A stretch of DNA of 64,000 nt, taken from positions 29,905 through 93,904 of the IMG/VR virus record IMGVR_UViG_3300019754_000001. One strand, 5' to 3'. A program made the translations under genes and the position numbers. Under the pieces are notes generated by a model, which was not told the DNA's origin, did not search any database, and saw nothing but the letters and a program-made list of their open reading frames with translations. This stretch comes from a virus. The number at the start of each line of letters is the position of its first letter. Position 1 is the first letter of the stretch. Below, piece after piece: positions 2,909-63,309 of the stretch.

Positions 2909-2924
2909 TTAAATATTATAGGAA

Positions 2925-3726: not shown

Positions 3727-4032
3727 ATGAAAGATAAATTAAAATTTAAATTAGATTCAGAAGAACTTCGCAATATAGTATATGAAAATTACTGCATAGA
3801 TACTAACGGAAATGAATGGGAATTTGAAACTATAGAGAATATTCATGAGGGAGAAGGAAGACATGAAACATTCTGGAGTAGGGTAGTTAAAAGAAATGAC
3901 GGGATTTTCTTTAAGATTAAGTGGGCTAGCTCTATAAAAGATAATATGGATTGGGAAGTATGTAACCCCCTAAAAGAGTACACTGTTGAAGAGGTAATTG
4001 CAACAGATGTAACAATTACAAAGTATTTATAA
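3727..4032 (+). CDS. hypothetical protein (101 aa)
   Basis: Starts 1 nt after the previous stop. Confidence 0.75.
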   Translation: MKDKLKFKLDSEELRNIVYENYCIDTNGNEWEFETIENIHEGEGRHETFWSRVVKRNDGIFFKIKWASSIKDNMDWEVCNPLKEYTVEEVIATDVTITKYL

Positions 4033-4092
4033 CTATAATTATATTCAATAGATAGCATAGACAAATTAAATTCTTACTTAAATAATATTAAT

Positions 4093-4395
4093 ATGAGAGA
4101 ATTTAAAACAAGCCCATATGGAGATATAGTAGATTTAGATGATAAAGAAACATTTAAGCACTTACCAAATACCATTAAATCACTGGGAAAGCTAATGCTT
4201 AGTGAAATAGGATATGCTATTTGCTATATGGATTATTGGCATAAAGATGTATTTAAAATAGATGACCCACAGAGAAAAAGAGTAAACAAGCTAATTAAAG
4301 ACTTCACAGAGAACGAAATAAATAACTATAAGAACGTTAAGTGGTATAGAGAGCAGGTATTCTTATTTCAGGATGAGATAGAAAATATGTGTTAA
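4093..4395 (+). CDS. hypothetical protein (100 aa)
   Basis: Last + gene before the convergent terminator. Confidence 0.75.
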   Translation: MREFKTSPYGDIVDLDDKETFKHLPNTIKSLGKLMLSEIGYAICYMDYWHKDVFKIDDPQRKRVNKLIKDFTENEINNYKNVKWYREQVFLFQDEIENMC

Positions 4396-4409
4396 AGATT
4401 AGCACAAAC

Positions 4410-4457
4410 AAAAAAAGGGGAACCCTACCATTACGGTAGAGTTCCCCTATTTTTTTT
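4410..4457. terminator. bidirectional intrinsic terminator between convergent modules
   Basis: A-run, aggggaac-c-ctacc / attac / ggtag-a-gttcccct stem (4416-4448), T-run. Confidence 0.9.
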
Positions 4458-9192: not shown

Positions 9193-12100
9193 CTAGCATT
9201 TCTTATGCTCGTCCCTTATGACATCTCTAACTTGTACTAAGCTAGGATTGACATTTGAGGTCATTGAACTTGTATTAACTCTAGGCTTATACTCACTAAC
9301 TTTCCCATTAGCAAATGGAAACTCCTTATAACCTTTACTTAATACCCACCTAATTAAATGCTCCTCGCTAAACTGACCATTAACATATTTATTAGAGTAG
9401 GCTTGTACACTACTATCTAATAGAATAGAAGCTCCAGCCTCAACAGCTACACTTAACATCTCTACAGTTCTTTTAAACTTAGCTTCAGATCTACCGTGTG
9501 CCCCAACACCACCAGATATACTTGCAAAGACCTTATCATCTTTAGTATATGTTTCTGAATTTACAGGTATATTATTATTACGTGCATCAAAGGCATAAGT
9601 AAGAGTACTAGAACTTTTAGGATTATAAGCCCTACTGTTAAAGTCTTTACCAAAGTTAGCAAATACATAAGCTGTAGCTCTAGCCGCTTTATATTGATCT
9701 TTTCCAGTCTTATCCATCGATAGTATGAACTTAGTTGTTCCATTCTCCTTTTCACTATCAATACCATTATTGATTAAATAACTTAAAACAGTAGCATGAG
9801 ATGGCTGTCCTAACTCTTTCCAGTATAGCAACTTCTTACCTTTAAGCTTTCCAGAGTTAATTAGATCAACTATCCATTCCTTTCTAGCCATTAGTTGTGG
9901 ATATTCTTTATCAAACTTATCAGTAGTTAACCAATCATGGTAGTTTTGAACAGACTCTGCTATAGTTCCTGCAGGTATAATAGCACTAGTAGAGCTCATG
10001 TGAGAAGAAGGGTTACCGAAGTGCTTCTCTCCACCCTTTCTTAGGGTATAAACCATACCATTCTCTTTAGCATATTTTTCCATTCCTTGATAATCTAAAC
10101 CCTTATCTGTCATGAAAGAAGGTATACCATTCATACCCCTAATTACAACAGTTTCATTAGCAGTAGTCTTACCCATCTTACTAATAGCATGTAATTTTTC
10201 ATGCTTTGGAGGACTATCAAATAGTGTTTGTTGTACAGCAAGTTTTTCTTCTAAACCTCTTATCTTTTCTGCAACTTCCATATACTCTCCCATTATAATG
10301 TTTCTTGATTGTTTATCTATCATTGTGTTGGAAGCAAATACATACTCATTAGTAGTCAAGTCAAAAATGCTATCTGTAGGCATTACTGCAAATTCCTTTC
10401 CAAGCGTAGTTACTTTTCTGTGTGGTTCTTTATTAAGTAATACCTCTACAGCTACTCGCTTAGTTATTGCAGGGTTTGTTATTCTTCTCAAATCATTACC
10501 TGGCCTTATTTCATATACTGAGTTATTGTAGCCAGTTCCATATGTTTTTCCATTTATAGTCACAGTATCATATACTACATTCTTTGTTTGTTTATCTTTT
10601 TCTATTTCATTAAAACCTGAAGTAGCTATAAAGAAGTTACCAAAAGCTTCATATAATGCAGTACCTTTTTTAAGTTTAGCTCCTATCATGTTCTCAAACA
10701 GGTTAGTCATATACTTAAGTATTCTCTCCCCAAAGGTTGATTCTTTATATGGAGTCTCTTTATGGAAATTTATAAACTCTCTATTTGTTAAAGCTACCAT
10801 AAATTCATTAAGGTTGGTTAGTGGCTCATACCTTCCAACATCTTTTAAATCAGACTCCTTCTTTTCCTTTATATTTGCTTTTATCTTATTAATTTCTCTT
10901 TTGTGGATATCAGCTAAGTGCGCTCTGACAGCTTCAATATTACCCATTGCAATCCTTATATCTCTAAATTCGTCACCCTTAAGCTGTCCGGATATATATC
11001 TATCTACAAGTTGAGATGTTTGAGTGTGAGCTATTTCATGAAGTAATACCTCTTCCAGTTCTGCTTTGAATATATTAGGTGCTAGATTTCTAGACCCCAT
11101 CTTATTAACATTGAGGCTTATTGAACCTCCAACTTGCTGACCCCTATGCTGAAGGGTTGGATCTTTTACATATTTAATACCGTTAGGCATTAACCATTTA
11201 AGGTCTTTTAAAATCCTTGCTGCAGGTATTAGATGTGGTGTAGTTATATTATCCAATGCACTCATAAAAGAACTTACGCCCTCCGTGCCATTAGAAAAGT
11301 AGCCAGTTACAGGGTCTCCTTGAAGTGCTACTGTTTTATCAGCTCTGTAGTTTGCAACCTTCTCTTTTACATTTGGGTTATTGTAATCAAATACAGACTT
11401 GCCCTCATACTCTTCACCTAGATTTTCTGACATCTTCTTATGACCTTTTGTATTCATTTCTAGATATATAAAACCGTCCTCCATTGGAACTCTCTCATAT
11501 AAACTATCTTTATTCTTTCCTCTGACATGTGCATATAGGGGAGGATTTGAGTTCTTAGAGCTAAACACTACTTTATCTGTATATAAAACTTTATTAGTAT
11601 CAGGGTCATAGTTATTTTTATTTTCTATTCCATCAATCTTATTAAGCTCTGGAGTACTCTTTGGATAATGTTCTACATACTCTTTAAATACTTCCACGGG
11701 GTTTATATTATTAAGTAGTGTAGAATTTAATCCAAGGCCATGACCTGATTCAATTAATATCTTTAAAGGTCTAATCATCTTAATGGAGCGTGGGCTAAAC
11801 TTAGCACCCTCCATTAAACTGTACCTGACTAAATCAAGAGCTAAAGAACGTTGCTCAGCATTACCTCTATAGAGTTCCATCCAGGATGCTATCAGCATTG
11901 TCTGTGCGTTCTGAGTTAATGCAAAGGTATTTATCTCTACGAAGGAGGGGGCATCCAGTGTCTTTCCTTGTGAAGGGATTAAGTTACTTATGAACAAAGA
12001 ACCTATTGGATTATTAGTTCTTTTGTATCTATTAATCCTATTAGCTAATGAGTTACTTCCATACAACATATCAACCATCAACTGTTTCTTATCTATCTCT

Positions 12101-15100
12101 TCACCATTATCCTTAAACAAACTACTTTCATCTGTTTTCTTAAGCAATAGGTGTGAGAGCATTGATTCATGAAGTTGTTTTGATATAAATGGAATATCTG
12201 AATAAGATAGGGAGCTGTTATTATCTAGTACCATATCAAGAAGTGTATTGAACTTGGGGGTAGCACCAACACTCATAGGAAAACCTCCTATATTAGTACC
12301 CCATATAGCACGAGCCGTGTTAAGAGAATTATATACTCCATAGCCAACTTCAGTAAGTTCACCATCACCATTTAATACTAGATTATCAAGACCTACTATA
12401 TCAGACTTGCCATTTATAACTTCAGAGTATATTTTAACTTTTTGAACTATACTGCTGATATCTTTACCAACACCCTTAGTTTCAATTTTAAGTACACTAT
12501 TTGCTATCCCTATTGTTTTTGCAGGATTATACAGTGCTGCAAAAATAGAAGCTACTTTATACTGAGCTGAATTACTTTGACTCTTTAGTTCTTCTGTTGT
12601 TAGCGGACCCTCCACCCTATTCTCTTCATAGGATTTTAATACAGACTGTATAATAGCCATATCTTCACTACTATTTCTTTTGCCAAGTTTATTACTTGTT
12701 GTTTTTAACTCTTCTGTTATTTCCTGTATTGCAGGCTGTGTCATTATTAAGGCTACTGTTTCAGCTGAGAGTGCTTTATTCTTACTTTGAGTTTCTCCTT
12801 TATCTACCATTTGTATTAATAAATTATACACACCGGAATTTACAGCATCATAACCAAGATACGCTAAGTTTCCATTATTAGCATTATCAACAGCTTCTGA
12901 TAGCAACATCATTAAGGAGTCAGCATTGCTCCTTACTCCACCACCACTAGTTCCTAAATCTATATCAGATAAAGTAAGTACTTCACCTTCTGATTCCACC
13001 TCTAAGAAAAGTTTACTACCATCCTTATCAATAGGATACAATCCCTTATTCTCGGCCATTGCTAAAAACACTAGAGCATTAGCTTCAATAGCTACACCTA
13101 TTTTACCAGCCTGAGCATTATTGTATTCTTTTTCTGAGTATTCAATACCCAAAGGGACGAATCGCTTAGTACCATCTCTGTACTGTTCTTCTTCCTTAGC
13201 TTTAGCAACCTTAGCAAAGTTTTGAAAGTCTGGTAAATCTAAAGTAGTTAACATCTTTTTAGTAATATCCGGATGACTTAAAACTGCCTCATGTAATCTT
13301 ATATACTGATTTTGTAATAACTTACTCTCTTCCTTAGCTGTTACATTTTCTTCAGATATTATCTTTAGTGTTTTATTGCCGTCAGCATCTTCTACATTTT
13401 TATAGTTATACATATAAGTATAAAGGTGGTCTACGTCAAAGTCAGACCCCATCTGTGCAGTAATCTCATCAGGCAGTATTATGAGAGACTTCATTTGGGG
13501 AGGTAAAAATCCAACTATCTCTATGTTAGACATGGAACTAAATCCCTGATTAGGAATACGCGCTCCTATTAACGATAACAACTCTTTATCTATTTTAGAC
13601 ATATCAAGCTTTCCGCCACTGCCTATAAAATTGTTAATGTCTTCATTAAACATCCAAGGGAGTATTACTTGCATCTTTTGAATACCTATAACCTTACCTT
13701 TCTTGTTTAATATAATATCTCCAGCCTTTAGCTCTGTATCAAACTCACTGGTAAATATAACATTATTTTCATTATCACTCAACTTTGATACATTCATCTT
13801 ACCCTTAATCCCAAAAGCAGCTCCTTGTACAAAAGACCTTCCTCTAAGTTCAGGTCTTAGTATTTTTTTACTAATTGCTGAATTGATTTTTTGAACTATC
13901 TTATTACGTGATGCTGACATATCTAAAGGCCAGGCGAATGCTCCATGCTTAAACTTTAAAGATTGTAGTTCATTATCACTTATACCCTCATTGACAAGTA
14001 TCTCTTTGAAAGCATCTCTAAACTTAGCTTGGTTAGTTACAACTCCATTCTTTATTCCAAAGGAGTGCTCTAACTTACCAAGCCCTTCCTCCATCATTCT
14101 TACTTTAATCTTATCTCTCATCTCTCTTATACCCTTACCATCTTTAATAACGTGGTCATCTATAAATAAATCAAAACCTGCCATTTCTGAAATACCCATA
14201 GTAATAAGTTGATTCATCTGAGACACTGAGATTGTCTTATAATCCTCATGGTTTCCTTCTTCTTGTTGAGTTTTCAATCCCTCTCTCTTAACTATAGTAG
14301 GCTCCATCAAATCTATCTTATCTTTATTTAAACCAATTGCTCTAGAATTCCCCTCATGGTCATTTTCATAATTAAACACATCCCACTTATCTCTAGAACC
14401 TGCCTTAACTGCCGATTCAAAAGCTAAATGTACAGTGGTTAAATTACCAGTTTTCTCTTCATTGTTATCATCTATTAGATACTTTCTTTCCTCTCGTTCC
14501 ATCTTTTCTCTAATCATATCTATTTCTAGGTCTTTTGTATATTGGGGTATTAATGGAAAGAATGAAGACTTTACAATCATCGTATCATTTGAAGAAGTCT
14601 CCTTATTGAAGTTGTTTGAGGTATACAAAGGCTTTTGTGGAATTATGTCCATCTGTGTCAGTCTAGCTATTTCTGCATCCTCTCCAGAGTTTAATAGTAA
14701 TGGCTTGTTAGTTTTATAGCTTTCCATTATCTTCTTGTTAATACTGTCATACACTTCTTCTTTAATCTTACCCCTCTGGGCCATAAATACTATATAGCTT
14801 TTAAGAGTTACTAACTCTTGTGCATCTGTACTATTAACATTCTTATACCCCTTAGCTATTTCAGGGCTTAGGGATTTTTTATACTTATTATACATTCTAG
14901 AAGTATACTTATCATTAAGAACAAAATAAGCTATGTTTTCATAGTTATTAATTATTCTTTTACCGTTAACCATCTCAGCAACTTCTGTTGATGGGTCCAT
15001 TCCAGTACCTATTAAAGAACCTAACCTCTTAAGGTAAGTAGTCCATGTACCAAACTCATCACGTTTAAAATACTGTGCTGGGTCAGATAACAGCTGTACA

Positions 15101-17940
15101 ACCTCACCTGTTCCTATCATATTATTTATAACATAATCAGCAGCTATTGCAGTTAAAGCATAGGCATCTGGATTAGTTATATTTCTTTTTTCTAGAGTTT
15201 CAGTATCCAAACCCATTCTTTTTAAGTACTCTTTATTTAATGTCTTTGTTATTGGATATGATTTAAAATTTTCATTCAATATATCAAACACATGCTTAAC
15301 TTCTTGCTGTATATCCTTATGTACCTCATCTAGCATAAGTTTTACAGTATCGTTATTAAATATTATACCATTAGAACTTAGTATTGAAGTAGCTGGGTCT
15401 GTACTATCTAAAAGTTTATTAAGTGAAGGAAATAAATAAAACCTGTCACCACCCTTAAGAAGTGCTATATCCATTCCTTTTCTACTGTCTTCTTTTCGTT
15501 TATTTATAACTCTAGTAATTCGTTTAGCTTCTCCTCTTATAAGATCTTCAAGAGCATTGTTTACTTCTATTCTTGTTATAGTATCACCTATAAGACCCTC
15601 CTCATACTTATATTTAATATCTTTTCCATTGGCATCTTTTAACTTAGTATTATTATCCTTGTCTGCAAATATACCTCTAGGGCCAGTTATTCCATCAGTT
15701 TTACCTACCCCTGTTATATTGATACGTGGCCACTTAAATATTATATTTCTACTCTTATCTGAAAACGTTAACGGCATTAGGTGCATGAATTTATCATTAC
15801 CGTTATTGGCCATTAAAGATAATCTCATAACGAGTTTCTCTAGTGGGGATGCTTCTTTTCTTGTTATGTTAACATTATTAGAAGTAGATATTGCATCTAA
15901 AACCCCCATAACAATATCCCCCTCTTTTAAAGCACCTCTCTTTAATAGTTTAACAACTCTAGAAGTTGAAGTAAAGTCTCCATCTTCCATATCTTTCATA
16001 AATTTACTATCTTTAGTTGTTAACTTCTTTACTAACTGTGTGGCAAAACTAGGTAATCCGTATTTAGCTACTTGGTTATCTGAAGAGTTTAGAAAGGTCT
16101 GGTCTACGTGTTCTGCAGATTCTTCATAAAGTGTCTTTAATACTATTTTTACCATCCTATCCTCTAAAGGGTTAGAGTTGTTACCAACAAATGAAGAGGT
16201 TGTGTCAATATCTGTTATGTTTGATAGTGATGTTATAAAGTTAAACCCTCCCTCATTATCTGTAGATATAAATGTTATGGGATTCATACCTGACTTTAAG
16301 AATTTAGCAGCCTTATCACTTCCATTTTGTATATACTTTTGTGGGTTTCTAATAAGGTCTTCATATTGAGAGGAGGTAAGCTTAATACCGTATTGATCTA
16401 ATATATCCATAATCTCAACAGCGTTATCAAGCATATGCTGTACACCAGCATTCCTATCAGCTTTACTAAAATCAATACCAAACTTCCTTAAAGCCTCAAC
16501 AGCTAAAACACCAACTCTATTAGATAGCTCAATCATCTTACTTTCATCTAGAACAAAGTTGTTATTTGATATCTTTAATATCCCAGCCTTGCCTTCAGAC
16601 TCTTCATGCTTTTCTATTTGATGCTCTCTAGCTAGGTTTAAGGAACTTCGGGTGGCGGAAGTGGAATCAGTATTTATAATCCTATACTGTCGTTCTACTG
16701 TATTTGGAGTTTCAAAATCTCCATCATTTAGTTCTCTAGAGTATTCTTTAACTGTAACCATGTTATGATTTTGTAGATTAGTAGCTACATAGAATAAGTT
16801 TCTAAACCTATTATACTCTGGTGTAGTTGGGTCTTTTAGCTTTGCAGCTATAGACATTAAGACTGGGTCTTGTGTCTTCTCTAACATTTCAACCCTCTGA
16901 CTTATCGTACCGTATGAATCAGCTAGGGCATTAGTTATTTTACTAAATACTACCTTGTGGCTATAAGTATCAATGAACCCTAAAATGTTTGCTTTGAGTT
17001 GGGGAGTGTATTTCTTACCATCTTGAACATAAGTTACTTTAGGTATATTCATAAGATAGGTTTTAAATACAAACCCTACAGTATCTGATACTGGGATAGC
17101 CATTTTCTTAGCATCATCCCAAACAGCACCAAAGACCTCTTCACCAAACATATCTGAATCATCTTGTGTTTCAGCATTCTCTGTTACAGTCTCAGTTGTT
17201 AGTTTAGTATCATCTTCTAAGTTATTATCTTTAGTAGTTTCGTCCTTATCTTTATTTATCTTTTCTTCCTTATACCCTTCAGATATTAATCTACCTTTAA
17301 GTAGCTTTTGAAAAGACTTAAAAGCATCAGGCTCAAGTAGCTTATTAACGGAGGATAGAAAAAGCTCTCCCTTGGTGCGTTGTTCTTTTGTTATTGTTTT
17401 ATTTGCCAGTCCTTCTTTATATTCTTGTTGTGCTGTCCTTAACATTTTTTCCATTTCAACAGCAAGTGATTTAGTACTAATAGCATCATTAAATAAGCTC
17501 TTTAGTACAATACTTTCTCCCCACCCCAAGATAGATTCTACTTCTAAAGTATTAAATCCTTCTATTAGCGTATCAGGGTCTTCTATATATTCATCAGCTT
17601 CTAATCCATAACCTTCTACTCTTTTAATGACTTCCTCATATACAGGCTCTCCATTTTCATCTACTCTTCCGTTATAGTTTTCAGGATTAAATTCCCAATC
17701 TCCATAGGTATCTTTATACTTATCTGTTCTTACAGCTATTGATACTTCTACAGCTCTTTTTATATTTTTTGTTTTATCTAGAACAGTCTTAAATAAATAA
17801 GATGCTTCACCATTAGATGCTTTTTCAAATGGAATCTCATCTTCTTTTAAGTTATACTTCTTAAAAAGACTTAAAGCAGTATCCGAAGATACTACTTTAG
17901 TCAATGAGTTAAATACTTTTGTTCCTTTAGGACACTTCAT
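9193..17940 (-). CDS. virion-packaged single-chain two-barrel RNA polymerase (crAss-like) with C-terminal zincin and DUF4326-like domains
   Basis: 2915 aa; RIPNQG and GSDFDVD (13429-13443) catalytic region; HEIAH at 11026-11040. Confidence 0.9.
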   Translation of the reverse strand: MKCPKGTKVFNSLTKVVSSDTALSLFKKYNLKEDEIPFEKASNGEASYLFKTVLDKTKNIKRAVEVSIAVRTDKYKDTYGDWEFNPENYNGRVDENGEPVYEEVIKRVEGYGLEADEYIEDPDTLIEGFNTLEVESILGWGESIVLKSLFNDAISTKSLAVEMEKMLRTAQQEYKEGLANKTITKEQRTKGELFLSSVNKLLEPDAFKSFQKLLKGRLISEGYKEEKINKDKDETTKDNNLEDDTKLTTETVTENAETQDDSDMFGEEVFGAVWDDAKKMAIPVSDTVGFVFKTYLMNIPKVTYVQDGKKYTPQLKANILGFIDTYSHKVVFSKITNALADSYGTISQRVEMLEKTQDPVLMSIAAKLKDPTTPEYNRFRNLFYVATNLQNHNMVTVKEYSRELNDGDFETPNTVERQYRIINTDSTSATRSSLNLAREHQIEKHEESEGKAGILKISNNNFVLDESKMIELSNRVGVLAVEALRKFGIDFSKADRNAGVQHMLDNAVEIMDILDQYGIKLTSSQYEDLIRNPQKYIQNGSDKAAKFLKSGMNPITFISTDNEGGFNFITSLSNITDIDTTSSFVGNNSNPLEDRMVKIVLKTLYEESAEHVDQTFLNSSDNQVAKYGLPSFATQLVKKLTTKDSKFMKDMEDGDFTSTSRVVKLLKRGALKEGDIVMGVLDAISTSNNVNITRKEASPLEKLVMRLSLMANNGNDKFMHLMPLTFSDKSRNIIFKWPRINITGVGKTDGITGPRGIFADKDNNTKLKDANGKDIKYKYEEGLIGDTITRIEVNNALEDLIRGEAKRITRVINKRKEDSRKGMDIALLKGGDRFYLFPSLNKLLDSTDPATSILSSNGIIFNNDTVKLMLDEVHKDIQQEVKHVFDILNENFKSYPITKTLNKEYLKRMGLDTETLEKRNITNPDAYALTAIAADYVINNMIGTGEVVQLLSDPAQYFKRDEFGTWTTYLKRLGSLIGTGMDPSTEVAEMVNGKRIINNYENIAYFVLNDKYTSRMYNKYKKSLSPEIAKGYKNVNSTDAQELVTLKSYIVFMAQRGKIKEEVYDSINKKIMESYKTNKPLLLNSGEDAEIARLTQMDIIPQKPLYTSNNFNKETSSNDTMIVKSSFFPLIPQYTKDLEIDMIREKMEREERKYLIDDNNEEKTGNLTTVHLAFESAVKAGSRDKWDVFNYENDHEGNSRAIGLNKDKIDLMEPTIVKREGLKTQQEEGNHEDYKTISVSQMNQLITMGISEMAGFDLFIDDHVIKDGKGIREMRDKIKVRMMEEGLGKLEHSFGIKNGVVTNQAKFRDAFKEILVNEGISDNELQSLKFKHGAFAWPLDMSASRNKIVQKINSAISKKILRPELRGRSFVQGAAFGIKGKMNVSKLSDNENNVIFTSEFDTELKAGDIILNKKGKVIGIQKMQVILPWMFNEDINNFIGSGGKLDMSKIDKELLSLIGARIPNQGFSSMSNIEIVGFLPPQMKSLIILPDEITAQMGSDFDVDHLYTYMYNYKNVEDADGNKTLKIISEENVTAKEESKLLQNQYIRLHEAVLSHPDITKKMLTTLDLPDFQNFAKVAKAKEEEQYRDGTKRFVPLGIEYSEKEYNNAQAGKIGVAIEANALVFLAMAENKGLYPIDKDGSKLFLEVESEGEVLTLSDIDLGTSGGGVRSNADSLMMLLSEAVDNANNGNLAYLGYDAVNSGVYNLLIQMVDKGETQSKNKALSAETVALIMTQPAIQEITEELKTTSNKLGKRNSSEDMAIIQSVLKSYEENRVEGPLTTEELKSQSNSAQYKVASIFAALYNPAKTIGIANSVLKIETKGVGKDISSIVQKVKIYSEVINGKSDIVGLDNLVLNGDGELTEVGYGVYNSLNTARAIWGTNIGGFPMSVGATPKFNTLLDMVLDNNSSLSYSDIPFISKQLHESMLSHLLLKKTDESSLFKDNGEEIDKKQLMVDMLYGSNSLANRINRYKRTNNPIGSLFISNLIPSQGKTLDAPSFVEINTFALTQNAQTMLIASWMELYRGNAEQRSLALDLVRYSLMEGAKFSPRSIKMIRPLKILIESGHGLGLNSTLLNNINPVEVFKEYVEHYPKSTPELNKIDGIENKNNYDPDTNKVLYTDKVVFSSKNSNPPLYAHVRGKNKDSLYERVPMEDGFIYLEMNTKGHKKMSENLGEEYEGKSVFDYNNPNVKEKVANYRADKTVALQGDPVTGYFSNGTEGVSSFMSALDNITTPHLIPAARILKDLKWLMPNGIKYVKDPTLQHRGQQVGGSISLNVNKMGSRNLAPNIFKAELEEVLLHEIAHTQTSQLVDRYISGQLKGDEFRDIRIAMGNIEAVRAHLADIHKREINKIKANIKEKKESDLKDVGRYEPLTNLNEFMVALTNREFINFHKETPYKESTFGERILKYMTNLFENMIGAKLKKGTALYEAFGNFFIATSGFNEIEKDKQTKNVVYDTVTINGKTYGTGYNNSVYEIRPGNDLRRITNPAITKRVAVEVLLNKEPHRKVTTLGKEFAVMPTDSIFDLTTNEYVFASNTMIDKQSRNIIMGEYMEVAEKIRGLEEKLAVQQTLFDSPPKHEKLHAISKMGKTTANETVVIRGMNGIPSFMTDKGLDYQGMEKYAKENGMVYTLRKGGEKHFGNPSSHMSSTSAIIPAGTIAESVQNYHDWLTTDKFDKEYPQLMARKEWIVDLINSGKLKGKKLLYWKELGQPSHATVLSYLINNGIDSEKENGTTKFILSMDKTGKDQYKAARATAYVFANFGKDFNSRAYNPKSSSTLTYAFDARNNNIPVNSETYTKDDKVFASISGGVGAHGRSEAKFKRTVEMLSVAVEAGASILLDSSVQAYSNKYVNGQFSEEHLIRWVLSKGYKEFPFANGKVSEYKPRVNTSSMTSNVNPSLVQVRDVIRDEHKKC

Positions 17941-55884: not shown

Positions 55885-56719
55885 CTAAAACACTGAGTGT
55901 TTTCTTCATAGGTGTAAGTATTTCATCCATCTCCTCTCCTAAATCTCTAACTACGTAGTGTTGATAACCTTTCTCATACCAATCATCTGCCAATGCTCCA
56001 TCAACATGAAAAAGTACCATTCCATCAACCTGTATTCCAGTATCTTCTTCATATAGCTTTTTATAAAGATTGAGCTGAATCTCTCCGGAGTGTTGAACAC
56101 AATTACGCATAGCTAACTTTCTGAAAGGGTCTAACAAGTAACCAGGTAGCTTGTTTTTATGCTGTTCCCTATATTGTTCTACAGTAAATGCTTTAGCAAA
56201 TTTAAAATCTCCTATAAGTACAGAACCGCTAACTTTATTCCTTAAGACGATGTCTATTGTGTATCCTATGAGGTGTGTCTTATTACCCCTACTGACTTCC
56301 ATTTCTAATATATCATACTTTTGCACTATGCTAGTCATGAGGGCGTGTGCATTTCTCTCTAATCTACTTTTAGCTACTGTTCCGATTGGGTCTAAGTAAA
56401 ACATCTCACAGAACTCATGACCTGCTGTACCTATGCAGGCAGCTCTATTACCATCAAGTCTCCAATACCTTCTTATATCCTCTGCAGTATTTAAGTATGC
56501 TTTCTTATTTCTTTTATTGTTGTTAGCCATCAGTTGAGATATCATGCCCTTTTCAAAAGGTTTCTTGTACCTTGCAACAATAGTTGTTCCACTAACTAAC
56601 TCTACACCACCGAGTAAGTATTTATGGGATTGGGGGTCAAACTTAAACCCCTTATTATTGTTTAATTTCTTTCTTACTTCTGGGTCTTTTTCCCCTTGAT
56701 TCTTAAATGTTAATCCCAT
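55868..56719 (-). CDS. PD-(D/E)xK nuclease
   Basis: FDPQSHKY, GTAGH, GYTIDIV...IGDFK, QLNLY motifs. Confidence 0.8.
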   Translation of the reverse strand: MGLTFKNQGEKDPEVRKKLNNNKGFKFDPQSHKYLLGGVELVSGTTIVARYKKPFEKGMISQLMANNNKRNKKAYLNTAEDIRRYWRLDGNRAACIGTAGHEFCEMFYLDPIGTVAKSRLERNAHALMTSIVQKYDILEMEVSRGNKTHLIGYTIDIVLRNKVSGSVLIGDFKFAKAFTVEQYREQHKNKLPGYLLDPFRKLAMRNCVQHSGEIQLNLYKKLYEEDTGIQVDGMVLFHVDGALADDWYEKGYQHYVVRDLGEEMDEILTPMKKTLSVLDVPGV

Positions 56720-56720
56720 A

Positions 56721-56963
56721 TTACCCTACTGTTAATTTTAATTTCATTGTTAATTCGTCTGTCTCATTTGCTATCCACCAATCATTTCCGATTCTTATAT
56801 TCAACATACCTTCATCATCTTTATAATACTGTCTTACTTCTTCACTAGATACAGATAGAACTGTTTCATAGTATTCAACCTTTGGGTGAGGCATTCCAAG
56901 CCTATGTGCCTTGTCTAATTCTTCTTCACTCCTTGTTTTAATTAACCTTACTGTTATTTCCAT
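56721..56963 (-). CDS. hypothetical protein (80 aa)
   Basis: ORF in operon. Confidence 0.7.
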   Translation of the reverse strand: MEITVRLIKTRSEEELDKAHRLGMPHPKVEYYETVLSVSSEEVRQYYKDDEGMLNIRIGNDWWIANETDELTMKLKLTVG

Positions 56964-57241
56964 GACCTTTCAATTATATTTAAAATAGTTAATAATTCCC
57001 TTTCACTTTTAAAGATACCTCTAAACCTTACTACCATTACCTTAATATCTTTTCCTACTACTTCAATCTTTACATTTTCTTTTATTGTTATTTTTAACTC
57101 ATTCTCCTCTATCTCTAATAAAACTTCTACTATCTTTAATCCTTTTCTTAATATATTTTCTATATTCCATTTTCCTTCTTCTATTTCTTTATAACCTTTA
57201 AACTTTAATATCTTATAAATAGCTTCTATAAACTCTTTCAT
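56954..57241 (-). CDS. hypothetical protein (95 aa), first gene of the late module
   Basis: ORF about 100 nt downstream of the leftward promoter. Confidence 0.65.
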   Translation of the reverse strand: MKEFIEAIYKILKFKGYKEIEEGKWNIENILRKGLKIVEVLLEIEENELKITIKENVKIEVVGKDIKVMVVRFRGIFKSERELLTILNIIERSWK

Positions 57242-57298
57242 GCCTTAGTCTTTTATTGTTACTATGTAGTGTATTATGAAATTTGAGTAGTCAAGAGT

Positions 57299-57365
57299 AT
57301 CTTTAATTTGTAACTTTGTGTCCTTGAAAACGAGCTTTCATGCCTCAAAGTTACAAATTAAAGAT
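57299..57365. repeat. perfect 20-bp inverted repeat, each arm containing TAACTTTG
   Basis: atctttaatttgtaactttg (57299-57318) / caaagttacaaattaaagat (57346-57365), 27-nt spacer. Confidence 0.9.
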
Positions 57366-57376
57366 GACTTTTGCAA
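57346..57376 (-). promoter_or_regulatory. leftward Bacteroidota promoter for the late module
   Basis: TTG (57376-57374), N20, TAACTTTG (57353-57346). Confidence 0.7.
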
Positions 57377-57429
57377 TACCCAAAATATCAAAAAACTAGC
57401 ATAAAGAAGAAAGGTAAATAAAATAATAT

Positions 57430-57469
57430 AATAAAGAATAAGAATAAAGAAATAAAGAATAAGAATAAA
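57430..57469 (+). repeat. AT-rich direct repeat
   Basis: aataaagaataagaataaa at 57430-57448 and 57451-57469. Confidence 0.7.
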
Positions 57470-57547
57470 AAAGATAAAGAATAAGTTAAAAGAATTAGAT
57501 TGGGGGATAGTTTATATTTAAGTTTAATATAAATTATATCTTCAATG

Positions 57548-57707
57548 AAGCCATAGAAGAAGACTAGTCGGCGGCTATTGATTAATCCCCCACTTAATAC
57601 CCCCACGCTTAATACTTAAAGATTTTACAACAATAGTAGTCTTACAGGATTTAATCTACTACGTTAGATTGAGCGGCGCGCCGAACTACTGCTTTCTTCT
57701 ATGGCTT
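57548..57707. ncRNA. 160-nt long imperfect hairpin, candidate sRNA or cruciform
   Basis: aagccatagaaga / tcttctatggctt closing stem, inner cggcg / cgccg and gattaatcc / ggatttaatc pairings. Confidence 0.5.
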
Positions 57708-58038
57708 AAGTGCTAAAATACTTAGAATTTATATATAGGAAAGACACTTGATAAATAACCCCCCCCCTTCCAATAATTCATTAAGAACAATAGATATAAA
57801 ACAATAGCTACTGGAAAGAGAATAGAGATGAGCCCCTCTATATACTACTTATTGTTGAAAAGGAGGTATTGAAAAAGAAAGGAGAGGAGTAGTGGGGGGG
57901 GTTATTATAGAAAAGTGATATAAAAAAAGGAAATATAAGGGGGGGGTATAATGTAAGGTAGATAATATAGAATAGGAGAATGTGGAGGGATATTATGTGG
58001 GAGGGTATTATAAGGGAAGGTATCGTGTTGGAGATATT

Positions 58039-58074
58039 GGGGGGAGGTGGGGGGGGGAGAGGTGGGGGGGGGAG
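58039..58074 (+). other. G-quadruplex-capable G-run cluster
   Basis: G6-a-gg-t-G9-aga-gg-t-G9. Confidence 0.6.
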
Positions 58075-58244
58075 TATAAAAAATTTTTATATAAAAAAAA
58101 ATTAGTATGTCGGTATATATATAGAACACTTTAGGAGACCCCTACGGTGTATTGGTTGTATTGAAACCCTACGGGGGAGTAAGCAGATACAGCTCGGTTT
58201 AAAAGTGAACCGGATAACGAATCACTTCAAATACATTTACAGTT

Positions 58245-58754
58245 ATGGCACAGCCGAAAGCGGAAGCTACATTCAAATCAACGTCTTTATTTAACGGTTT
58301 TAAAGTCCGCCAAGACGGTTCAGTTTACATTTCAACATCCTTAGCAGTAACTAAAGCTACTGAGGTAATATCCAAATCGGGACGAAAAAGGATATACAAT
58401 ATCGGCGATAAAATGCCGTTAGCTATCCCAAGTTCTACAAAGTTCATGAGAGCAATTGGACTGGACTGGACACCTGGAAAAACAATGCTGGATATCTTTT
58501 CCAGAGAGTTAACAGTAGGCACAGCCTACGAGGGCACAGATGGCAAGGAATTCATCTTCGGTTTAGACAAGGATGGTAATCCCTATGAGGGCAATCCTGT
58601 AGGGACTGCTATCGAACGTTTCGAAGCTACGGCTTCAGAAGAACAAGAGGTTAACACACACCTCGTTAATGCAATTGAAACAGCTCAGGCTAATGCCTAC
58701 CTAAACATGGTTGGTGCAATGGCTAAAGAGGAAACTTCTGCCGACTTGGACTAA
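58245..58754 (+). CDS. hypothetical protein, first gene of the rightward (probably early) region
   Basis: 169 aa; structured leader upstream; strong hairpin downstream; acidic C-terminus. Confidence 0.8.
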   Translation: MAQPKAEATFKSTSLFNGFKVRQDGSVYISTSLAVTKATEVISKSGRKRIYNIGDKMPLAIPSSTKFMRAIGLDWTPGKTMLDIFSRELTVGTAYEGTDGKEFIFGLDKDGNPYEGNPVGTAIERFEATASEEQEVNTHLVNAIETAQANAYLNMVGAMAKEETSADLD

Positions 58755-58761
58755 TAACAAA

Positions 58762-58788
58762 ATCCCCTCACTTAATTGTGGGGGGATA
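58762..58788 (+). terminator. hairpin after the 169-aa gene (terminator or processing stem)
   Basis: atcccctcac / gtggggggat stem; weak U-tract. Confidence 0.5.
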
Positions 58789-58799
58789 CTTGTTAACAC

Positions 58800-61135
58800 C
58801 TGAGGGGCAAGGATAGACTCTCACTTAGTGGATTAATACTACCCACTGGTGGAGGGGCTAATCAATGCTCCACATCCAACTCATGCTACTGATAGTGCTA
58901 CATTACTACGTAATGTTCAGCTCACGGAAAGCCCTCCCATGTAATCTTTTTTACAGGCTACGCAAGAGACCAAGAGGCCAACATATACAAGCCTCCTCCG
59001 TAGATTAGATGAATGAATAAAATAACACAACCCCTTAAGAAGTTTTTTCGCAATATCTTATAGGGTAGTCTCCTCCATTCCTAAGTTTAGGGGGGGGAGA
59101 CAATATATTGTTAAGTTACTAGAGTAGTGGTGATTGTAAGTGGACCAGGTTAATATGGACAGACTCCTAACATACCTCCACCACCCCCCTACAACACTGA
59201 CTTAACAACAATAGTAGGTCACAAAGTCCTCACCTATGCCTTACCTTAATATGTCATGCTTCTGTATGTCATGCTATTGTAGAGTGTGGGGGGGCAGACC
59301 TATGCTAGAGTAGTCTTGGCTAAGATAAGCTTTAGTAAAGTATACTTACTGATGCTTATGGGGCAGTCTGTATGAGGATAAAGACACCCCCCCCCACACA
59401 TCATACTCACCTCAATTCCCCTCCCTACAATAAAACCGATACTGATTCTTTAGTATTCTATTGGTAGTGAAGGTCTCCCCACCCCACACCCTCTCCCTTA
59501 CTTTCCTCACTTCTATAAATTAGATAAGATATCTATTGTTTAAGATGAATGAAATTAAGACTACATTTTATTATAATGTGGAGGAAGTATGTATAACATA
59601 TATTAATACCGTTAAATATACACACACGCTCAATACTCGGCAGAAAACACTAGAGTATAAAACAATATACCCCCAGACTGCAAAGTCAGTAAAAAATAGT
59701 AAACTGGGGTTAGCACATCAGACTGTAAAGTCAGGACAAATAGTAAACTGATGTGTTATTTTAATAGTAAATACAACCTCACTAAAGAGTATAACAAGCG
59801 TTAAGGCATACCACACCAATAGGTGTAAGGTCCCCACGATAGAGGGAGCAAAGGTATAGTAAATGAGGCAACTCTTATCTTATTTAACCTGTCAAACCTC
59901 AATATTGAGAAAGACATAAACCCACAGTTTGGTTAGCTGTATAATCATGGAATAAAACTTATAGTGGGATAATGACCCACCACGCTGCATTGATATGTAG
60001 TAAAACAAACGATGGAGTTATAATAACTCCTGCTCCTATTAGTCTCAGGGGGCAAACTAAGAGACTAAATTTAAAACATCTGCAAAACAAGGAATTGCTG
60101 CTACGGAACGATGTGTAGTAGCATTGAGAATTTGAGCAGATGTTTTTAATAAACTTAAGCCTCCAGAGGCCACACTTACAACTTGAGACGTATGTCCAAT
60201 AGTTTGCACAATAAGCATTAGTCCACTTCGTTCAGAAGAAGATAGGTGTTGTAAGTGAAAAGCAGTGAAATGCTGTAATTTAAACTCTAGTATGTTAAAT
60301 ACTAAATCTCTGAAAATATGTGGAAAGTGTAGGTTATGGAGAGTTGAGTAATGAAGGGCTAATACCTGGAGCTTAGATATCTACAACACTATTTAACTTA
60401 TTAGGGTTTATTTATTAAAGAAAAGCTGCACCCTCCGCAATTAAATACAAACCGGGTTGTAGCCTAAATAGCTTCACAGTGATGTGTGGAGTAGACGAAA
60501 GTCTGAGGAGATGAAAGAGCTCTTATTGACAACACCCTTTATCAGGGGCGAAACTCCGCCTGCATTAAGCGTCTCGGAAATTGTCAATATATATATTATG
60601 TAGGATGAAGGGGGCTACCGAAAGCTCTCCTTCATACCTATGTATTAAAGCCTCATCGTGGGCATTATCTAGTTCGTCCTTACATCTAATATGTGAGGAA
60701 TCTACCCCTTAAAGCTGGAGGGATAGTAGGACAAAAGAAGCTCTAAGGTTACCAGATAAGTGTAGGTAATCTTAGTATCAACACTAGTTACTATATGCAT
60801 GTAGTAGCGACTAATGGAGCAATTTGTTAGTAAATACGTTTAGAGACAACTCTAGTCTTGAAGCGGTATAATGGGCGGTTCGAAACGTTTGTTATATTAA
60901 AAAGATGAATCACTACTTATATAGAGATGCTCCTTTAGAGGGGAGTATGTAAGACTCTATAGTGAGGATTCAGATTACTTGGGAAGAGCCTCATGGAGAG
61001 CCCTTCCCTCGTAATCTAAATAAGGCTACCCTTAGCCTACTAATAATAAGGAATGGTGCAGAAGATTAGCTCTTCGGTCTATCGAAAGATAGGTTTAAAC
61101 CCTCTACGAATGTGTAGGTGTGGAGTTCAAACCAA
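58800..61135 (+). ncRNA. array of structured RNA domains, block 1
   Basis: No credible ORF; consecutive stem-loops, junctions and pseudoknots with + strand G-U pairs and GNRA loops. Confidence 0.65.
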
Positions 61136-61146
61136 TAAATTAAGAT

Positions 61147-61515
61147 ATGACGATTATAGAAACAAAAGCCTATCTTAAAGGCTACCTAGCTGCACTGGGG
61201 ACTAATGTGCAGAATACTAGAGATGAAGATTCCTTATGGAGTCTCAACCAAAAATTAATGTATAACGAGATAGTAACAGAGGTTGGAACCTTGGGATTTA
61301 CGATCAATAGGGGGATATGCCCTGTTGGTGGAAATGTTACTTACGCTTGTACAAGTCCCGAAAATTCTACTGTAGATATATATCTGGGGTGGGCAGACAA
61401 CAAGTTCTTTAAAGAGGCCTTTGAAGGACTCGAAATGGAGTTTGTATACCAAGAGACAAGAATAAGCATAGAGGAGCTTGAAAAACTCTTATATGTTTTA
61501 GAGATAAAAGACTAA
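61147..61515 (+). CDS. hypothetical protein (122 aa)
   Basis: ORF with AT-rich initiation region between the RNA blocks. Confidence 0.75.
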   Translation: MTIIETKAYLKGYLAALGTNVQNTRDEDSLWSLNQKLMYNEIVTEVGTLGFTINRGICPVGGNVTYACTSPENSTVDIYLGWADNKFFKEAFEGLEMEFVYQETRISIEELEKLLYVLEIKD

Positions 61516-61634
61516 TAATATTTAATCTTCAATTAGCGACAATAAGTGAGAGTGTCCGCTTCATTAAGAAGAAGTAAGAGATACTGTTAAAATACTATTA
61601 TACACTTATAATAAAAATATGATGTAAAATAAAT

Positions 61635-61802
61635 ATGAACTATCGAAGAGAAGCTAGAGAAGTAACACAAAACCATTATGGAGGATATTGTGAGATGTGT
61701 AGAAAGTTAGGAATTAAAATAGTTCCTTATCATAAATTTACTATGGAATTATATGATAAAATTAAAGAGTTAAGTAAAATAAAAAAAGATTTTAAAAGAT
61801 AA
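61635..61802 (+). CDS. unannotated 55-aa basic protein with CxxC
   Basis: Translated by hand: MNYRREAREVTQNHYGGYCEMCRKLGIKIVPYHKFTMELYDKIKELSKIKKDFKR; taaaataaat upstream of ATG. Confidence 0.65.
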   Translation: MNYRREAREVTQNHYGGYCEMCRKLGIKIVPYHKFTMELYDKIKELSKIKKDFKR

Positions 61803-61804
61803 GC

Positions 61805-62540
61805 CCTAATTAAACTCCTAACACAGTTAAGACTACCCTCACTAACGCATGCAAAGCGAATAAAGGGAAACGCTGTGGCCTATTGGCAATAGGTGGAGAG
61901 TATTAATTGGTATTTAAAGAATTGGAGTGCCTTGCCAAAGCTAGGTAAAATACCCACTCACACTAAGATTCAATAGATACTTGCCAAGGGGCTTTATATT
62001 ATTAAAGGCAGGCCACCCTTCTGTGGTAATTCTCCCTTATGATATATTAGAATTTGAGGACTTTGGGGAAGTTTTAAACAAAGATAAAGACCTGAAATTA
62101 CACGTGCCTGAAAGAGCATGAATAAGAATTTATAGTTACTGACTGAACGATACTATATATAGAGGGATAACAACCCCACAGGTATTGAGTTGTCCCCCCC
62201 AAACTGTCGTAGTATGGGGGAGCTCAGACAGGACAAGGAAAGTAACGAGAATGATAGACTTAAACTATTAGGCTACTGAATCCTCTACGTAAGTAGAAAG
62301 CTTATTGGAAACAATAGGAAGATTGTTACCTCTGACAAGGTAATATAGTGGAGAATGGCACAGGTATGTGAGATAAAGCTCACATCTATCATTACAATCT
62401 TAACAAGCGTCAAGCATGAAGCCCTGAGAGGGGTGGAATAGTTTAAATCGATATACAACACTGTCTCCTTTATTGGAAGTGGAAAATGTAGAAGATTGTG
62501 ACTATGACCTAAACCCTACCATGTTGGAGGGCATGGTGCT
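61805..62540 (+). ncRNA. array of structured RNA domains, block 2
   Basis: Multi-stem domains, e.g. aatgataga / tctatcatt enclosing tctac-GTAA-gtaga and cttattg-GAAA-caatagg. Confidence 0.65.
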
Positions 62541-62565
62541 AAAATATTAACTCTAATTTAAAGAC

Positions 62566-63309
62566 ATGAAAGTAAACATTAATCGCCTTGAAGATGAGGA
62601 ATACTTAACTGAAATTAAGTTAGGTAAGGAAAGAATAGTCAGGAGGTGGTATAGAGATACACCCCATATTTACGATTACACAAAGTTTTTAAGACTAGTT
62701 GATAAGTTAGTCGGCAAGCATGTTAATGTGCTTAAAAGAAAGTTACGTAAGGATAGGTGCTATCAATCTCCAGAACAGATAGTGAGGAGATATATGTTAG
62801 TGTTGAATAGGAATGGAGACATTATAAATGAGGACGGCTTAGTATATAAACCTACTCACGGAAGGGCTAACAGTTATTTAGTTAACTCTGATGGTATAAT
62901 ATCTATTACATATGAGAGAGTAGCTAAAAAGCAACCCACACTGACAAAGAGTGAAATTCTAACAAAAAAGATTGATAATCTTAGTGAAGCATATGGATTA
63001 GCTTTGAGGCTCTATAAATGCAGACAAGATTGGGGATTAATACCTCCATCAGATAGAAGGAGAGCCATGCGTAATATCCTATACGCATATCAAAGCCAGG
63101 CTGATGACCTATATACTGCTTACATGCACTCCAACAATTATAATACTAACAAATTTGATGGAGACAGAGTTAGAAAAATACCACAAAGGTATATAAAGGC
63201 TCTAAAAGGTAAGAAAGAGCATGTGAAAGTAAGGAAGGTGGAAGTAATTAAACCCACCCCCATACGAGTAAACTCTCCATATATCCACCTACCTGGAATA
63301 TGTGGATAA
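62566..63309 (+). CDS. hypothetical basic protein (247 aa)
   Basis: Long ORF with AT-rich initiation region. Confidence 0.75.
   Translation: MKVNINRLEDEEYLTEIKLGKERIVRRWYRDTPHIYDYTKFLRLVDKLVGKHVNVLKRKLRKDRCYQSPEQIVRRYMLVLNRNGDIINEDGLVYKPTHGRANSYLVNSDGIISITYERVAKKQPTLTKSEILTKKIDNLSEAYGLALRLYKCRQDWGLIPPSDRRRAMRNILYAYQSQADDLYTAYMHSNNYNTNKFDGDRVRKIPQRYIKALKGKKEHVKVRKVEVIKPTPIRVNSPYIHLPGICG

What the first reader, a model, noticed from the sequence alone, without database searches (positions are those of the whole stretch)
59670..59758. Tandem aptamer-like hairpins: same loop, different stems
Seen: core CAGACTG(C/T)AAAGTCAG-N3-4-AAATAGTAAACTG twice in tandem. The closing stems differ in sequence but both pair (ccccag/ctgggg; tagcacatcag/ctgatgtgtta), which is natural covariation. 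The core can form gact-GYAA-agtc (GNRA). tagtaaa recurs at 59765 and 59857. Inference: a duplicated protein-binding RNA module (sponge or antitoxin mimic) or a pair of vRNAP hairpin promoters.
Basis: partly seen in the sequence, partly recalled or inferred. Interest (0 to 1): 0.7.

Follow-up and report, generated by a model that had tools for sequence, protein, structure and literature searches.

The report
Twin RNA hairpins in crAss-like phage
Two adjacent hairpins with the same inner sequence but different, independently matching stems sit in the gene-free start of the early region of an uncultured crAss-like phage; they are most likely one module of a folded non-coding RNA, but nothing like them was found elsewhere, so their job is inferred, not shown.

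Summary
Hairpin 1 (59671-59709, 6-bp stem) and hairpin 2 (59711-59758, 11-bp stem) are one base apart. They share CAG-ACUG-Y-AAAGUCAG-N3/4-AAAUAGUAAA-CUG, and their outer stems differ at four positions changed on both sides. One G.U pair and fold z-scores (-3.7 on +, -1.5 on -) favour a + strand RNA.

The pair lies in the only gene-poor stretch (57250-62565) of a 93.9-kb circular crAss-like phage genome, where the late (-) and early (+) gene blocks diverge. From 58760 to 62560 the + strand is far more structured than the - strand (mean z -1.79 against -0.76) or coding controls.

The overlapping 71-aa ORF is not a gene: weak coding score, no homologues, and the second conserved block is read in a different frame in each copy.

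Searches of IMG/VR, JGI metagenomes, Rfam and 49 loci with a covariance model found no homologue of the module. Distant relatives keep a gene-poor stretch here but not its sequence.

Best reading (0.4): a two-site protein-binding module of an early non-coding transcript, comparable in position to the abundant unexplained RNAs of phage phi14:2.

ToxI-like and vRNAP hairpin-promoter readings are not supported. The GNRA mini-hairpin is only a minor alternative fold. No expression data could be obtained. On other DNA the scan had already found the phi14:2 RNA family; it is absent here.

The parts
59671..59709 (+). Hairpin 1: 6-bp closing stem (59671-76 with 59704-09) around a 27-nt interior that carries the conserved blocks
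   Evidence: Sequence; fold, closing-pair probabilities 0.91-0.96
59710..59710 (+). Single unpaired U between the two hairpins; allows end-to-end stacking
   Evidence: Sequence
59711..59758 (+). Hairpin 2: 11-bp closing stem (59711-21 with 59748-58, G.U at 59713/59756) around a 26-nt interior
   Evidence: Sequence; fold z -4.16; pair probabilities 0.79-1.00
59520..59887 (+). Candidate ~370-nt folded domain enclosing both hairpins, closed by a 12-bp helix (59520-31 with 59876-87, one G.U)
   Evidence: MFE and centroid of the 381-nt fold, z -3.67; closing-helix probability 0.5-0.8. Prediction only
58760..62560 (+). Structured, nearly ORF-free early-region leader in which the module lies. It holds only two small likely genes: 61147-61515 (122 aa) and 61635-61802 (55 aa)
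   Evidence: Mean fold z(+) -1.79 against z(-) -0.76, Wilcoxon 1.4e-6; coding controls -0.2 to -0.5. No genetic code opens it. Coding scores
59536..59751 (+). 71-aa TTG-start ORF overlapping the hairpins: judged not to be a gene
   Evidence: Coding score 0.037 against 0.30+-0.07 for genes; no Pfam or PHROG hit; no homologue; frame differs between the copies after the 1-nt indel

Best explanation
The two hairpins are a duplicated module of a + strand non-coding RNA. That RNA is transcribed from the gene-free head of the phage's early region.

Each hairpin has a lower stem of free sequence (6 or 11 bp). Above it sits an identical upper part: CAG/CUG, then ACUG paired with UAGU across an AAA bulge, then an apical loop carrying AAAGUCAG. 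An alternative fold of the upper part is a GNRA-capped mini-helix.

Only one nucleotide separates the hairpins, so they can stack end to end and display two identical heads. That is the geometry used by dimeric RNA-binding proteins. I therefore think the module is most likely a two-site docking or decoy platform for a dimeric host or phage protein early in infection.

Shown: the duplication, the independently compensated stems, the + strand bias of structure, the non-coding status, and the position at the start of the early block.

Inferred: that it is transcribed, that its interior is a recognition surface, and that the ligand is a protein.
For: The identical 16-nt and 13-nt blocks contrast with non-homologous, self-complementary flanks. 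Four stem positions change on both sides.

The G.U in hairpin 2 and in the enclosing helix would be A.C on the other strand. Fold z is -3.7 on + and -1.5 on -.

Region-wide, mean z(+) is -1.79 against z(-) -0.76, p 1.4e-6, with coding controls at -0.2 to -0.5.

A descriptor of the architecture finds only these two on the + strand of the 64-kb window.

The region is the only gene-poor stretch of the genome. It lies where the - and + gene blocks diverge. The genome is crAss-like and encodes a DFDVD virion RNAP.

In crAss-like phage phi14:2, long intergenic regions at the same end of the early block are transcribed early, abundantly and persistently (bioRxiv 10.1101/2020.03.07.982082).

Relatives L036 and L038 keep a multi-kb gene-poor stretch at this position. 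They share a leader block and a weakly similar small ORF.

From my own knowledge: CsrB/RsmZ sponges present one loop motif on different stems, and protein dimers clamp neighbouring hairpins.
Against: There are only two copies and no homologue anywhere, so covariation rests on one duplication.

The interior fold is ambiguous: the GNRA helix has probability 0.05-0.11, and there are competing registers.

No candidate binding protein is identified. The neighbouring 169-aa and 122-aa ORFs gave only weak leads.

The structure-poor relatives do not show analogous tandem modules.
Confidence: 0.4

Rival explanations
1. An architectural element of a larger folded RNA. The two hairpins are arms of a ~370-nt multibranch domain (59520-59887). 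Their conserved interiors make RNA-RNA tertiary or intermolecular contacts rather than binding a protein: A-rich strands, a possible GNRA loop, and self-complementary ACUG/CAGU and GACU/AGUC segments that could kiss.
For: An enclosing 12-bp helix is predicted in both the MFE and the centroid fold, with z -3.67. The only substitution in the 16-mer falls on the N of a possible GNRA loop. ATAGTAAA recurs four times inside the same domain. From my own knowledge, large phage RNAs such as ROOL and GOLLD use repeated modules and loop contacts.
Against: The enclosing helix is a single prediction of modest significance and has no comparative support. The GNRA fold has low probability. No Rfam family matches.
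Confidence: 0.2
2. A cis-acting transcription or processing signal on the early transcript. Possibilities are a put-like two-hairpin antiterminator, a pause or termination signal, or an RNase cleavage site that sets the ends of neighbouring RNAs.
For: Two stem-loops separated by one unpaired base is the layout of HK022 put RNA (my own knowledge). The element lies inside a long leader, about 900 nt after the first early ORF. Hairpin 2 is followed by UUAUUUUAAU.
Against: put hairpins do not share loops. The loops here are far larger than in intrinsic terminators, and the terminator scan did not call them. No downstream gene lies within 1.4 kb.
Confidence: 0.12
3. A DNA-level element: extruded hairpins serving as virion-RNAP promoters, or a replication, packaging or recombination site.
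For: The phage encodes a crAss-type virion RNAP, which in phi14:2 transcribes only denatured DNA in vitro. The cumulative GC-skew minimum and the strand switch lie about 2 kb away. Inverted repeats exist in DNA as well as RNA.
Against: Loops of 26-27 nt make cruciform extrusion costly, and ssDNA folds reach only -5.5 to -6.8 kcal/mol. The G.T pair is an A.C mismatch on the other strand. Two promoters 45 nt apart is odd. phi14:2 early starts showed no shared motif. The more typical origin-like features (21-bp AT-rich repeats, a perfect 20-bp inverted repeat) are at 57299-57485.
Confidence: 0.1
4. A recent tandem duplication without function, whose complementary flanks are fortuitous.
For: The element is a singleton with no relatives. 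Other short repeats in the region are at chance level: 14-mers with one mismatch are expected about twice in 5.3 kb.
Against: A plain tandem duplication would copy the flanks. Instead the 13-nt spacer is complementary to the left flank on one side and to the right flank on the other. Eight extra pairs in hairpin 2 have a chance of roughly 4e-4 (my own estimate). The interior is 85% identical while the flanks are unrelated.
Confidence: 0.1
5. Part of a real 71-aa protein with an internal peptide repeat.
For: The frame is open from 59536 to 59751, and the left blocks of the two copies are 45 nt apart, so they stay in the same frame.
Against: The coding score is 0.037, against 0.30 for genes and a median of 0.13 for small genes. 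The start codon is TTG. There is no family hit and no homologue. The conserved AAATAGTAAACTG block is read in different frames in the two copies.
Confidence: 0.03

Closest known systems
Abundant early long non-coding RNAs of Cellulophaga crAss-like phage phi14:2 (g004-g005 and g005-g006 junctions; bioRxiv 10.1101/2020.03.07.982082)
   Same: Gene-free, structured stretches at the head of the early block of a crAss-like phage, on the early-sense strand, with unknown function.
   Different: There is no sequence relation. The conserved phi14:2 g004-g005 RNA family (at least 120 IMG/VR contigs) gives no nhmmer hit in this genome. ARAGORN calls the g005-g006 stretch of phi14:2 a tmRNA, and none is found here. 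Transcription of the present region is not shown.
CsrB/RsmZ-type protein-sponge RNAs
   Same: The same recognition sequence is displayed on hairpins whose stems differ, and neighbouring hairpins form the binding unit for a protein dimer.
   Different: Sponges carry many copies of a short GGA loop. Here there are two copies of a 26-27-nt interior, with no GGA motif. As far as I know, Bacteroidota, the usual crAss hosts, lack CsrA. Binding is untested.
Guanidine-II (mini-ykkC) riboswitch
   Same: Two tandem hairpins with the same loop and covarying stems.
   Different: mini-ykkC has ACGR tetraloops and sits just upstream of a regulated gene. Here the loops are large and different, no gene follows within 1.4 kb, and there is no Rfam match at E<=1.
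N4 virion-RNAP hairpin promoters
   Same: Hairpin-forming sequences in the early region of a phage that injects its own RNAP.
   Different: N4 promoters have 5-7-bp stems and 3-nt loops with a conserved stem sequence, and the N4 enzyme is T7-like. Here the loops are 26-27 nt, the stems are not conserved, and the RNAP is a two-barrel DFDxD enzyme.
ToxI antitoxin repeats (type III toxin-antitoxin) and phage pseudo-ToxI
   Same: Short tandem RNA units in a phage genome.
   Different: ToxI units are uniform ~36-nt repeats cut by ToxN into pseudoknots. Here the units are 39 and 48 nt with unrelated flanks, and no ToxN-like gene was found (control silent).
HK022 put antiterminator RNA
   Same: Two stem-loops separated by a single unpaired nucleotide on an early phage transcript.
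   Different: put stems and loops are not duplicates of each other. No sequence similarity was tested beyond Rfam.

Membership tests
Any Rfam 15 family (including mini-ykkC, preQ1, CRISPR-DR, tRNA, tmRNA, ROOL, GOLLD) | Covariance-model match at or near the gathering score | tested here: not met
   cmscan of 56500-63000, both strands, E<=1: the only hit is a spurious miRNA match on the 57299-57365 palindrome. ARAGORN finds no tRNA or tmRNA in the window.
phi14:2 g004-g005 lncRNA family (uncatalogued, widespread in phages) | Conserved blocks GATGTGTTG..CCTTGAGAAAGG..ACAACACAAATGAGTTCTCAGC..GACCCTAC..AGGGTGCTAA | tested here: not met
   A profile built from 117 members gives no significant nhmmer hit in the whole genome (best E 8.5, in a coding region). 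Block searches found nothing.
ToxI-type type III antitoxin array | Uniform tandem repeats of ~34-36 nt | tested here: not met
   There are two units of 39 and 48 nt. Only the interior is shared. Tandem Repeats Finder does not call an array.
ToxI-type type III antitoxin array | Adjacent ToxN/AbiQ endoribonuclease gene (not required for a phage mimic) | tested here: inconclusive
   PF13958 gives no match in the genome, but the control genomes were silent too.
N4-type virion-RNAP hairpin promoter | Short stem (5-7 bp) with a 3-nt loop and conserved stem/loop bases, upstream of early transcription units | tested here: not met
   Loops are 26-27 nt, stems are 6 and 11 bp of unrelated sequence, and ssDNA folds are weak. 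Promoter activity itself cannot be tested here.
Guanidine-II (mini-ykkC) tandem-hairpin riboswitch | ACGR tetraloops on both hairpins and a regulated gene directly downstream | tested here: not met
   There is no ACGR tetraloop. The next + strand ORF with coding signal starts at 61147. No Rfam hit.
Csr/Rsm-type sponge RNA | Multiple GGA-containing loops that bind CsrA/RsmE | tested here: not met
   The conserved interior has no GGA motif and there are only two units. The likeness is in working principle only.
Retron msr-msd or other RT-templated ncRNA | Neighbouring reverse transcriptase | tested here: not met
   PF00078 gives no match in the genome, and the control rang in 3 genomes.
Protein-coding gene (71-aa ORF) | Coding statistics and conserved homologues | tested here: not met
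   plus the frame shift between the copies.

The most novel reading that the evidence does not exclude
The twin hairpin is a bivalent decoy carried on an early, virion-RNAP-made non-coding transcript. It captures a dimeric host RNA-binding or defence protein at the very start of infection. On this reading the 3.8-kb structured leader is an array of such RNA countermeasures that each crAss-like lineage replaces rapidly, which is why the position is conserved but the sequence is not.
Probability: 0.12. Interest if true: 0.75.

Novelty: new variant of a known kind. Interest (0 to 1): 0.4.

Why it matters
crAss-like phages are among the most abundant viruses in guts and in the environment, yet the first minutes of their infection are poorly understood. 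The one cultured model, phi14:2, makes abundant early non-coding RNAs that remain unexplained.

This phage devotes about 4-5% of a tightly packed genome to + strand structured, non-coding sequence at the same genomic position. The twin hairpin is its clearest element: it carries an internal signature of selection for pairing, since the stems were compensated independently after duplication.

If it proves to be a protein-docking or decoy module, it would offer a concrete way into the function of these early RNAs.

As it stands it is a singleton with no relatives and no expression data, so its value is as a lead rather than a result.

Tried and rejected
Homologue searches
- blastn (distant mode) of 56700-62600 against 50,697 GenBank phages: no match.
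- Exact 16-mer scan of IMG/VR: 31 single hits, none with the second block, so chance.
- Gapped 21-base pattern against JGI metagenome contigs: 19 hits, all the 3' end of one marine protein-coding gene.
- Covariance model R1 built from the two copies, run on 49 sources (715 kb): only E 0.04-10 hits. The best sequence look-alike (L053) lies inside a portal ORF.
- The search for related loci with the 169-aa ORF, the 283-aa exonuclease and the terminase as single queries: no close relatives. A terminase alignment did reach relatives at 50% identity or less. Their gene-poor regions share no DNA (blastn word 7) and no small ORFs (blastp) with this one.
- The closest relative by terminase (P0003, 64% identity) could not be fetched.

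Other tools that did not run
- The genome search 'relatives' is not available for virus records.

Other tests
- Alternative genetic codes do not open the region.
- Bacteroidota-type promoters: only one + strand TAnnTTTG box in the region, at 57311. The sigma-70-type scan was not enriched.
- TAGTAAA as a general intergenic or promoter motif: rejected, because it is confined to 59333-60828.
- The loop's AAAGTCAG occurs nowhere else in the non-coding region.
- A descriptor search for the same architecture in relatives gave background only.
- ESM Atlas look-ups for the flanking 169-aa and 122-aa proteins gave only weak leads.
- A literature search for crAss001 non-coding RNA found nothing relevant.

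Full report
**What the window is**

The window is bases 29905-93904 of a 93,904-bp IMG/VR virus record. Its 123-bp terminal repeat indicates a circular assembly. The phage is crAss-like:
- Terminase, portal and major head protein match the crAss PHROG families.
- The terminase is about 40% identical to gut crAss-like phages.
- The 2915-aa ORF at 9193-17940 (-) carries a DFDVD motif, the signature of the crAss virion RNA polymerase.

The genome is tightly packed except for one stretch, window 57250-62565. There the late/structural genes run leftward on the - strand and the other block runs rightward on the + strand. Within this stretch only three ORFs have a coding signal:
- 58245-58754, 169 aa
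- 61147-61515, 122 aa
- 61635-61802, 55 aa, which matches phrog_20390 and has homologues in Bacillus phages

No alternative genetic code opens the rest.

**The observation**

The sequence is as described.
- Hairpin 1: 59671-59676 pairs with 59704-59709 (6 bp).
- Hairpin 2: 59711-59721 pairs with 59748-59758 (11 bp, one G.U).
- One base lies between them.

The interiors are 27 and 26 nt. They share an exact 16-mer (with one Y position) and an exact 13-mer, separated by 4 or 3 nt. Outside the shared CAG/CUG the stems are unrelated in sequence yet both pair. Four stem columns change on both sides, and 89% of cells pair, against 23-36% when the partner is slid.

A plain tandem duplication would have copied the flanks. 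Here the 13-nt spacer is complementary to the left flank on one side and to the right flank on the other. Pairing was therefore established or kept separately for each copy.

In a 381-nt context the closing pairs have probabilities of 0.8-1.0. The motif occurs nowhere else in the genome.

**Which strand, RNA or DNA**

Several results point to a + strand RNA rather than a DNA cruciform.
- The G.U in hairpin 2 would be an A.C mismatch on the - strand.
- The 111-nt stretch folds with z -3.68 on + and -1.46 on -.
- Across 58760-62560, mean z in 120-nt windows is -1.79 on + and -0.76 on - (Wilcoxon 1.4e-6). Two coding controls give -0.2 to -0.5 on either strand.
- As single-stranded DNA the hairpins reach only -5.5 to -6.8 kcal/mol, and 26-27-nt loops make extrusion from duplex DNA unlikely.

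**Interior fold**

It is 1.4-2.4 kcal/mol worse than the MFE and has a pair probability of 0.05-0.11.

The favoured fold extends the closing stem. ACUG pairs with the UAGU of the invariant AAAUAGUAAAC block, leaving an AAA bulge and an apical loop that carries AAAGUCAG. This would explain why both blocks are invariant: they pair with each other.

The single substitution (C/U) is tolerated in either fold. It is the N of GNRA in one, and a terminal C.A versus U-A pair in the other. With two copies the choice cannot be settled.

**Not a peptide**

The 71-aa TTG-start ORF (59536-59751) fails every test for a gene.
- It scores 0.037 per codon, against 0.30+-0.07 for long genes, a median of 0.13 for small genes, and -0.31+-0.24 for shadow ORFs.
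- It has no Pfam or PHROG match.
- It has no homologue in the 5.8-billion-cluster collection.
- Because of the 1-nt indel, the conserved 13-mer is read in different frames in the two copies, so its conservation is at the nucleotide level.

**Search for relatives**

No search recovered a true homologue.
- GenBank phages by blastn: no match.
- IMG/VR by exact 16-mer: chance hits only.
- JGI metagenomes by a gapped 21-base pattern: 19 hits, all one marine coding gene.
- Rfam at E<=1: nothing relevant.
- A covariance model of the two copies over 715 kb of crAss-like loci: nothing credible. The best look-alike is inside a portal gene.

Terminase-based searches show that the nearest accessible relatives are only 46-50% identical. 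Two of them, L036 and L038, also have a multi-kb gene-poor stretch at the same position. They share a leader block (TGAAACCNTACGGGGG) and a weakly similar small ORF. They share no detectable DNA or ORF similarity in the rest, and they have no analogous tandem modules. The position is conserved; the content is not.

The one closer relative (terminase 64% identical) could not be fetched. Sequencing runs could not be queried.

**Context from a cultured relative**

In phi14:2, two long intergenic regions at the head of the early block are transcribed rightward at higher levels than most genes. Transcription starts at the earliest time point and persists. The early transcripts are made by the virion RNAP and show no common upstream motif (bioRxiv 10.1101/2020.03.07.982082).

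I found three things about these regions.
- ARAGORN calls one of them a tmRNA.
- The other belongs to a highly conserved RNA family present in at least 120 IMG/VR contigs and absent from Rfam. Earlier agents of this scan had already described that family on other DNA.
- That family is absent from the present genome.

The present region is therefore a positional analogue of the phi14:2 regions, not a homologue.

**Interpretation**

Two things are solid. This is a duplicated hairpin module with independently maintained stems. It lies on the strand and in the region where a structured early non-coding transcript is expected.

The mechanism is inferred. Two identical heads on stems of free sequence, one nucleotide apart, is the arrangement that dimeric RNA-binding proteins exploit. 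An example is Rsm/Csr dimers clamping neighbouring hairpins of sponge RNAs. I therefore favour a bivalent protein-docking or decoy module, with confidence 0.4 for the whole statement.

The rivals are:
- a purely architectural or RNA-RNA contact role in a ~370-nt domain closed by a predicted 12-bp helix, 59520-31 with 59876-87
- a put-like or processing signal
- a DNA-level site
- a functionless duplication
- a peptide

The ToxI-mimic and N4-style promoter readings fail their defining features.

**Verdict**

The feature is real and shows a within-genome signature of selection for RNA pairing. Interest is moderate (0.4). I class it as a new variant of a known kind: phage early non-coding RNA with repeated hairpin modules.

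Noticed in passing
L035 (Cellulophaga phage phi14:2, NC_021806) 4031-4500 +: ARAGORN calls a 470-nt tmRNA (tag GSSVQKLAMVA*) in the gene-free stretch just upstream of g006. This appears to be the paper's g005-g006 junction, one of its two abundant 'long non-coding RNAs' of unknown function. Rfam did not report it at gathering threshold.
   Followed up: partly
L035 ~2910-3360 (+); L036 ~3010-2690 (-); loci L126-L245: The other phi14:2 lncRNA (g004-g005) belongs to a strongly conserved structured RNA family. Conserved blocks are joined by variable hairpins, and no Rfam family matches. Earlier agents of this scan had already described the family on other DNA. It is absent from the present genome.
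   Followed up: partly
L036 6013-6047 (-); window 58160-58177: Relative L036 has an Rfam DUF805b RNA (44 bits, gathering score 35.6) directly upstream of its small first early ORF. The window and L036 share the leader block TGAAACCNTACGGGGG ahead of their positionally equivalent small ORFs. The window itself gives no DUF805b hit at E<=1.
   Followed up: partly
window 58245-58754 (+): The 169-aa first early ORF is an orphan by sequence. It has weak ESM-Atlas leads to phage and bacterial single-stranded-DNA-binding proteins (DUF669, SSB, Phage_SSB; TM 0.3-0.4) and ends in an acidic tail (EETSADLD), as SSBs do. This is a lead only.
   Followed up: partly
window 57299-57485: A perfect 20-bp inverted repeat (57299-57318 with 57346-57365), each arm carrying the Bacteroidota -7 box TAACTTTG, is followed by AT-rich repeats with a 21-bp period (57417-57485). 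It sits at the strand switch and the cumulative GC-skew minimum. This is a candidate divergent promoter and/or replication origin.
   Followed up: partly
window 57740-58075 and 59384-59500: There are unusual homopolymer tracts in a 33% GC genome: G8-G10 runs upstream of the 169-aa ORF and C9/CCCCACCCC tracts downstream. A 14-nt pair is 93% complementary (58062-58075 with 59384-59397) and brackets the ORF. L036 has a similar G-rich then C-rich pair. The function is unknown. The tracts could form long-range pairings or G-quadruplexes, and they are prone to length errors.
   Followed up: no
window 58488-61183 (-): All 8 terminator-like sites in the gene-poor region are on the - strand (8 found, 3.5+-2.1 expected), three of them within 59961-60171. 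This may reflect the A-rich + strand, or it may block leftward read-through into the region.
   Followed up: no
window 59696-59863 (+): ATAGTAAA occurs four times within 170 nt. In three cases it lies directly 5' of the 3' strand of a helix: hairpins 1 and 2, and CCUCA/UGAGG at 59777/59865. It may be a junction or recognition motif. Statistically it is weak once the duplication is discounted.
   Followed up: partly
window 61635-61802 (+): The 55-aa ORF (phrog_20390) has 35-41% identical homologues only in large Bacillus phages of the GenBank phage set. That is an odd distribution for a crAss-like phage gene.
   Followed up: no
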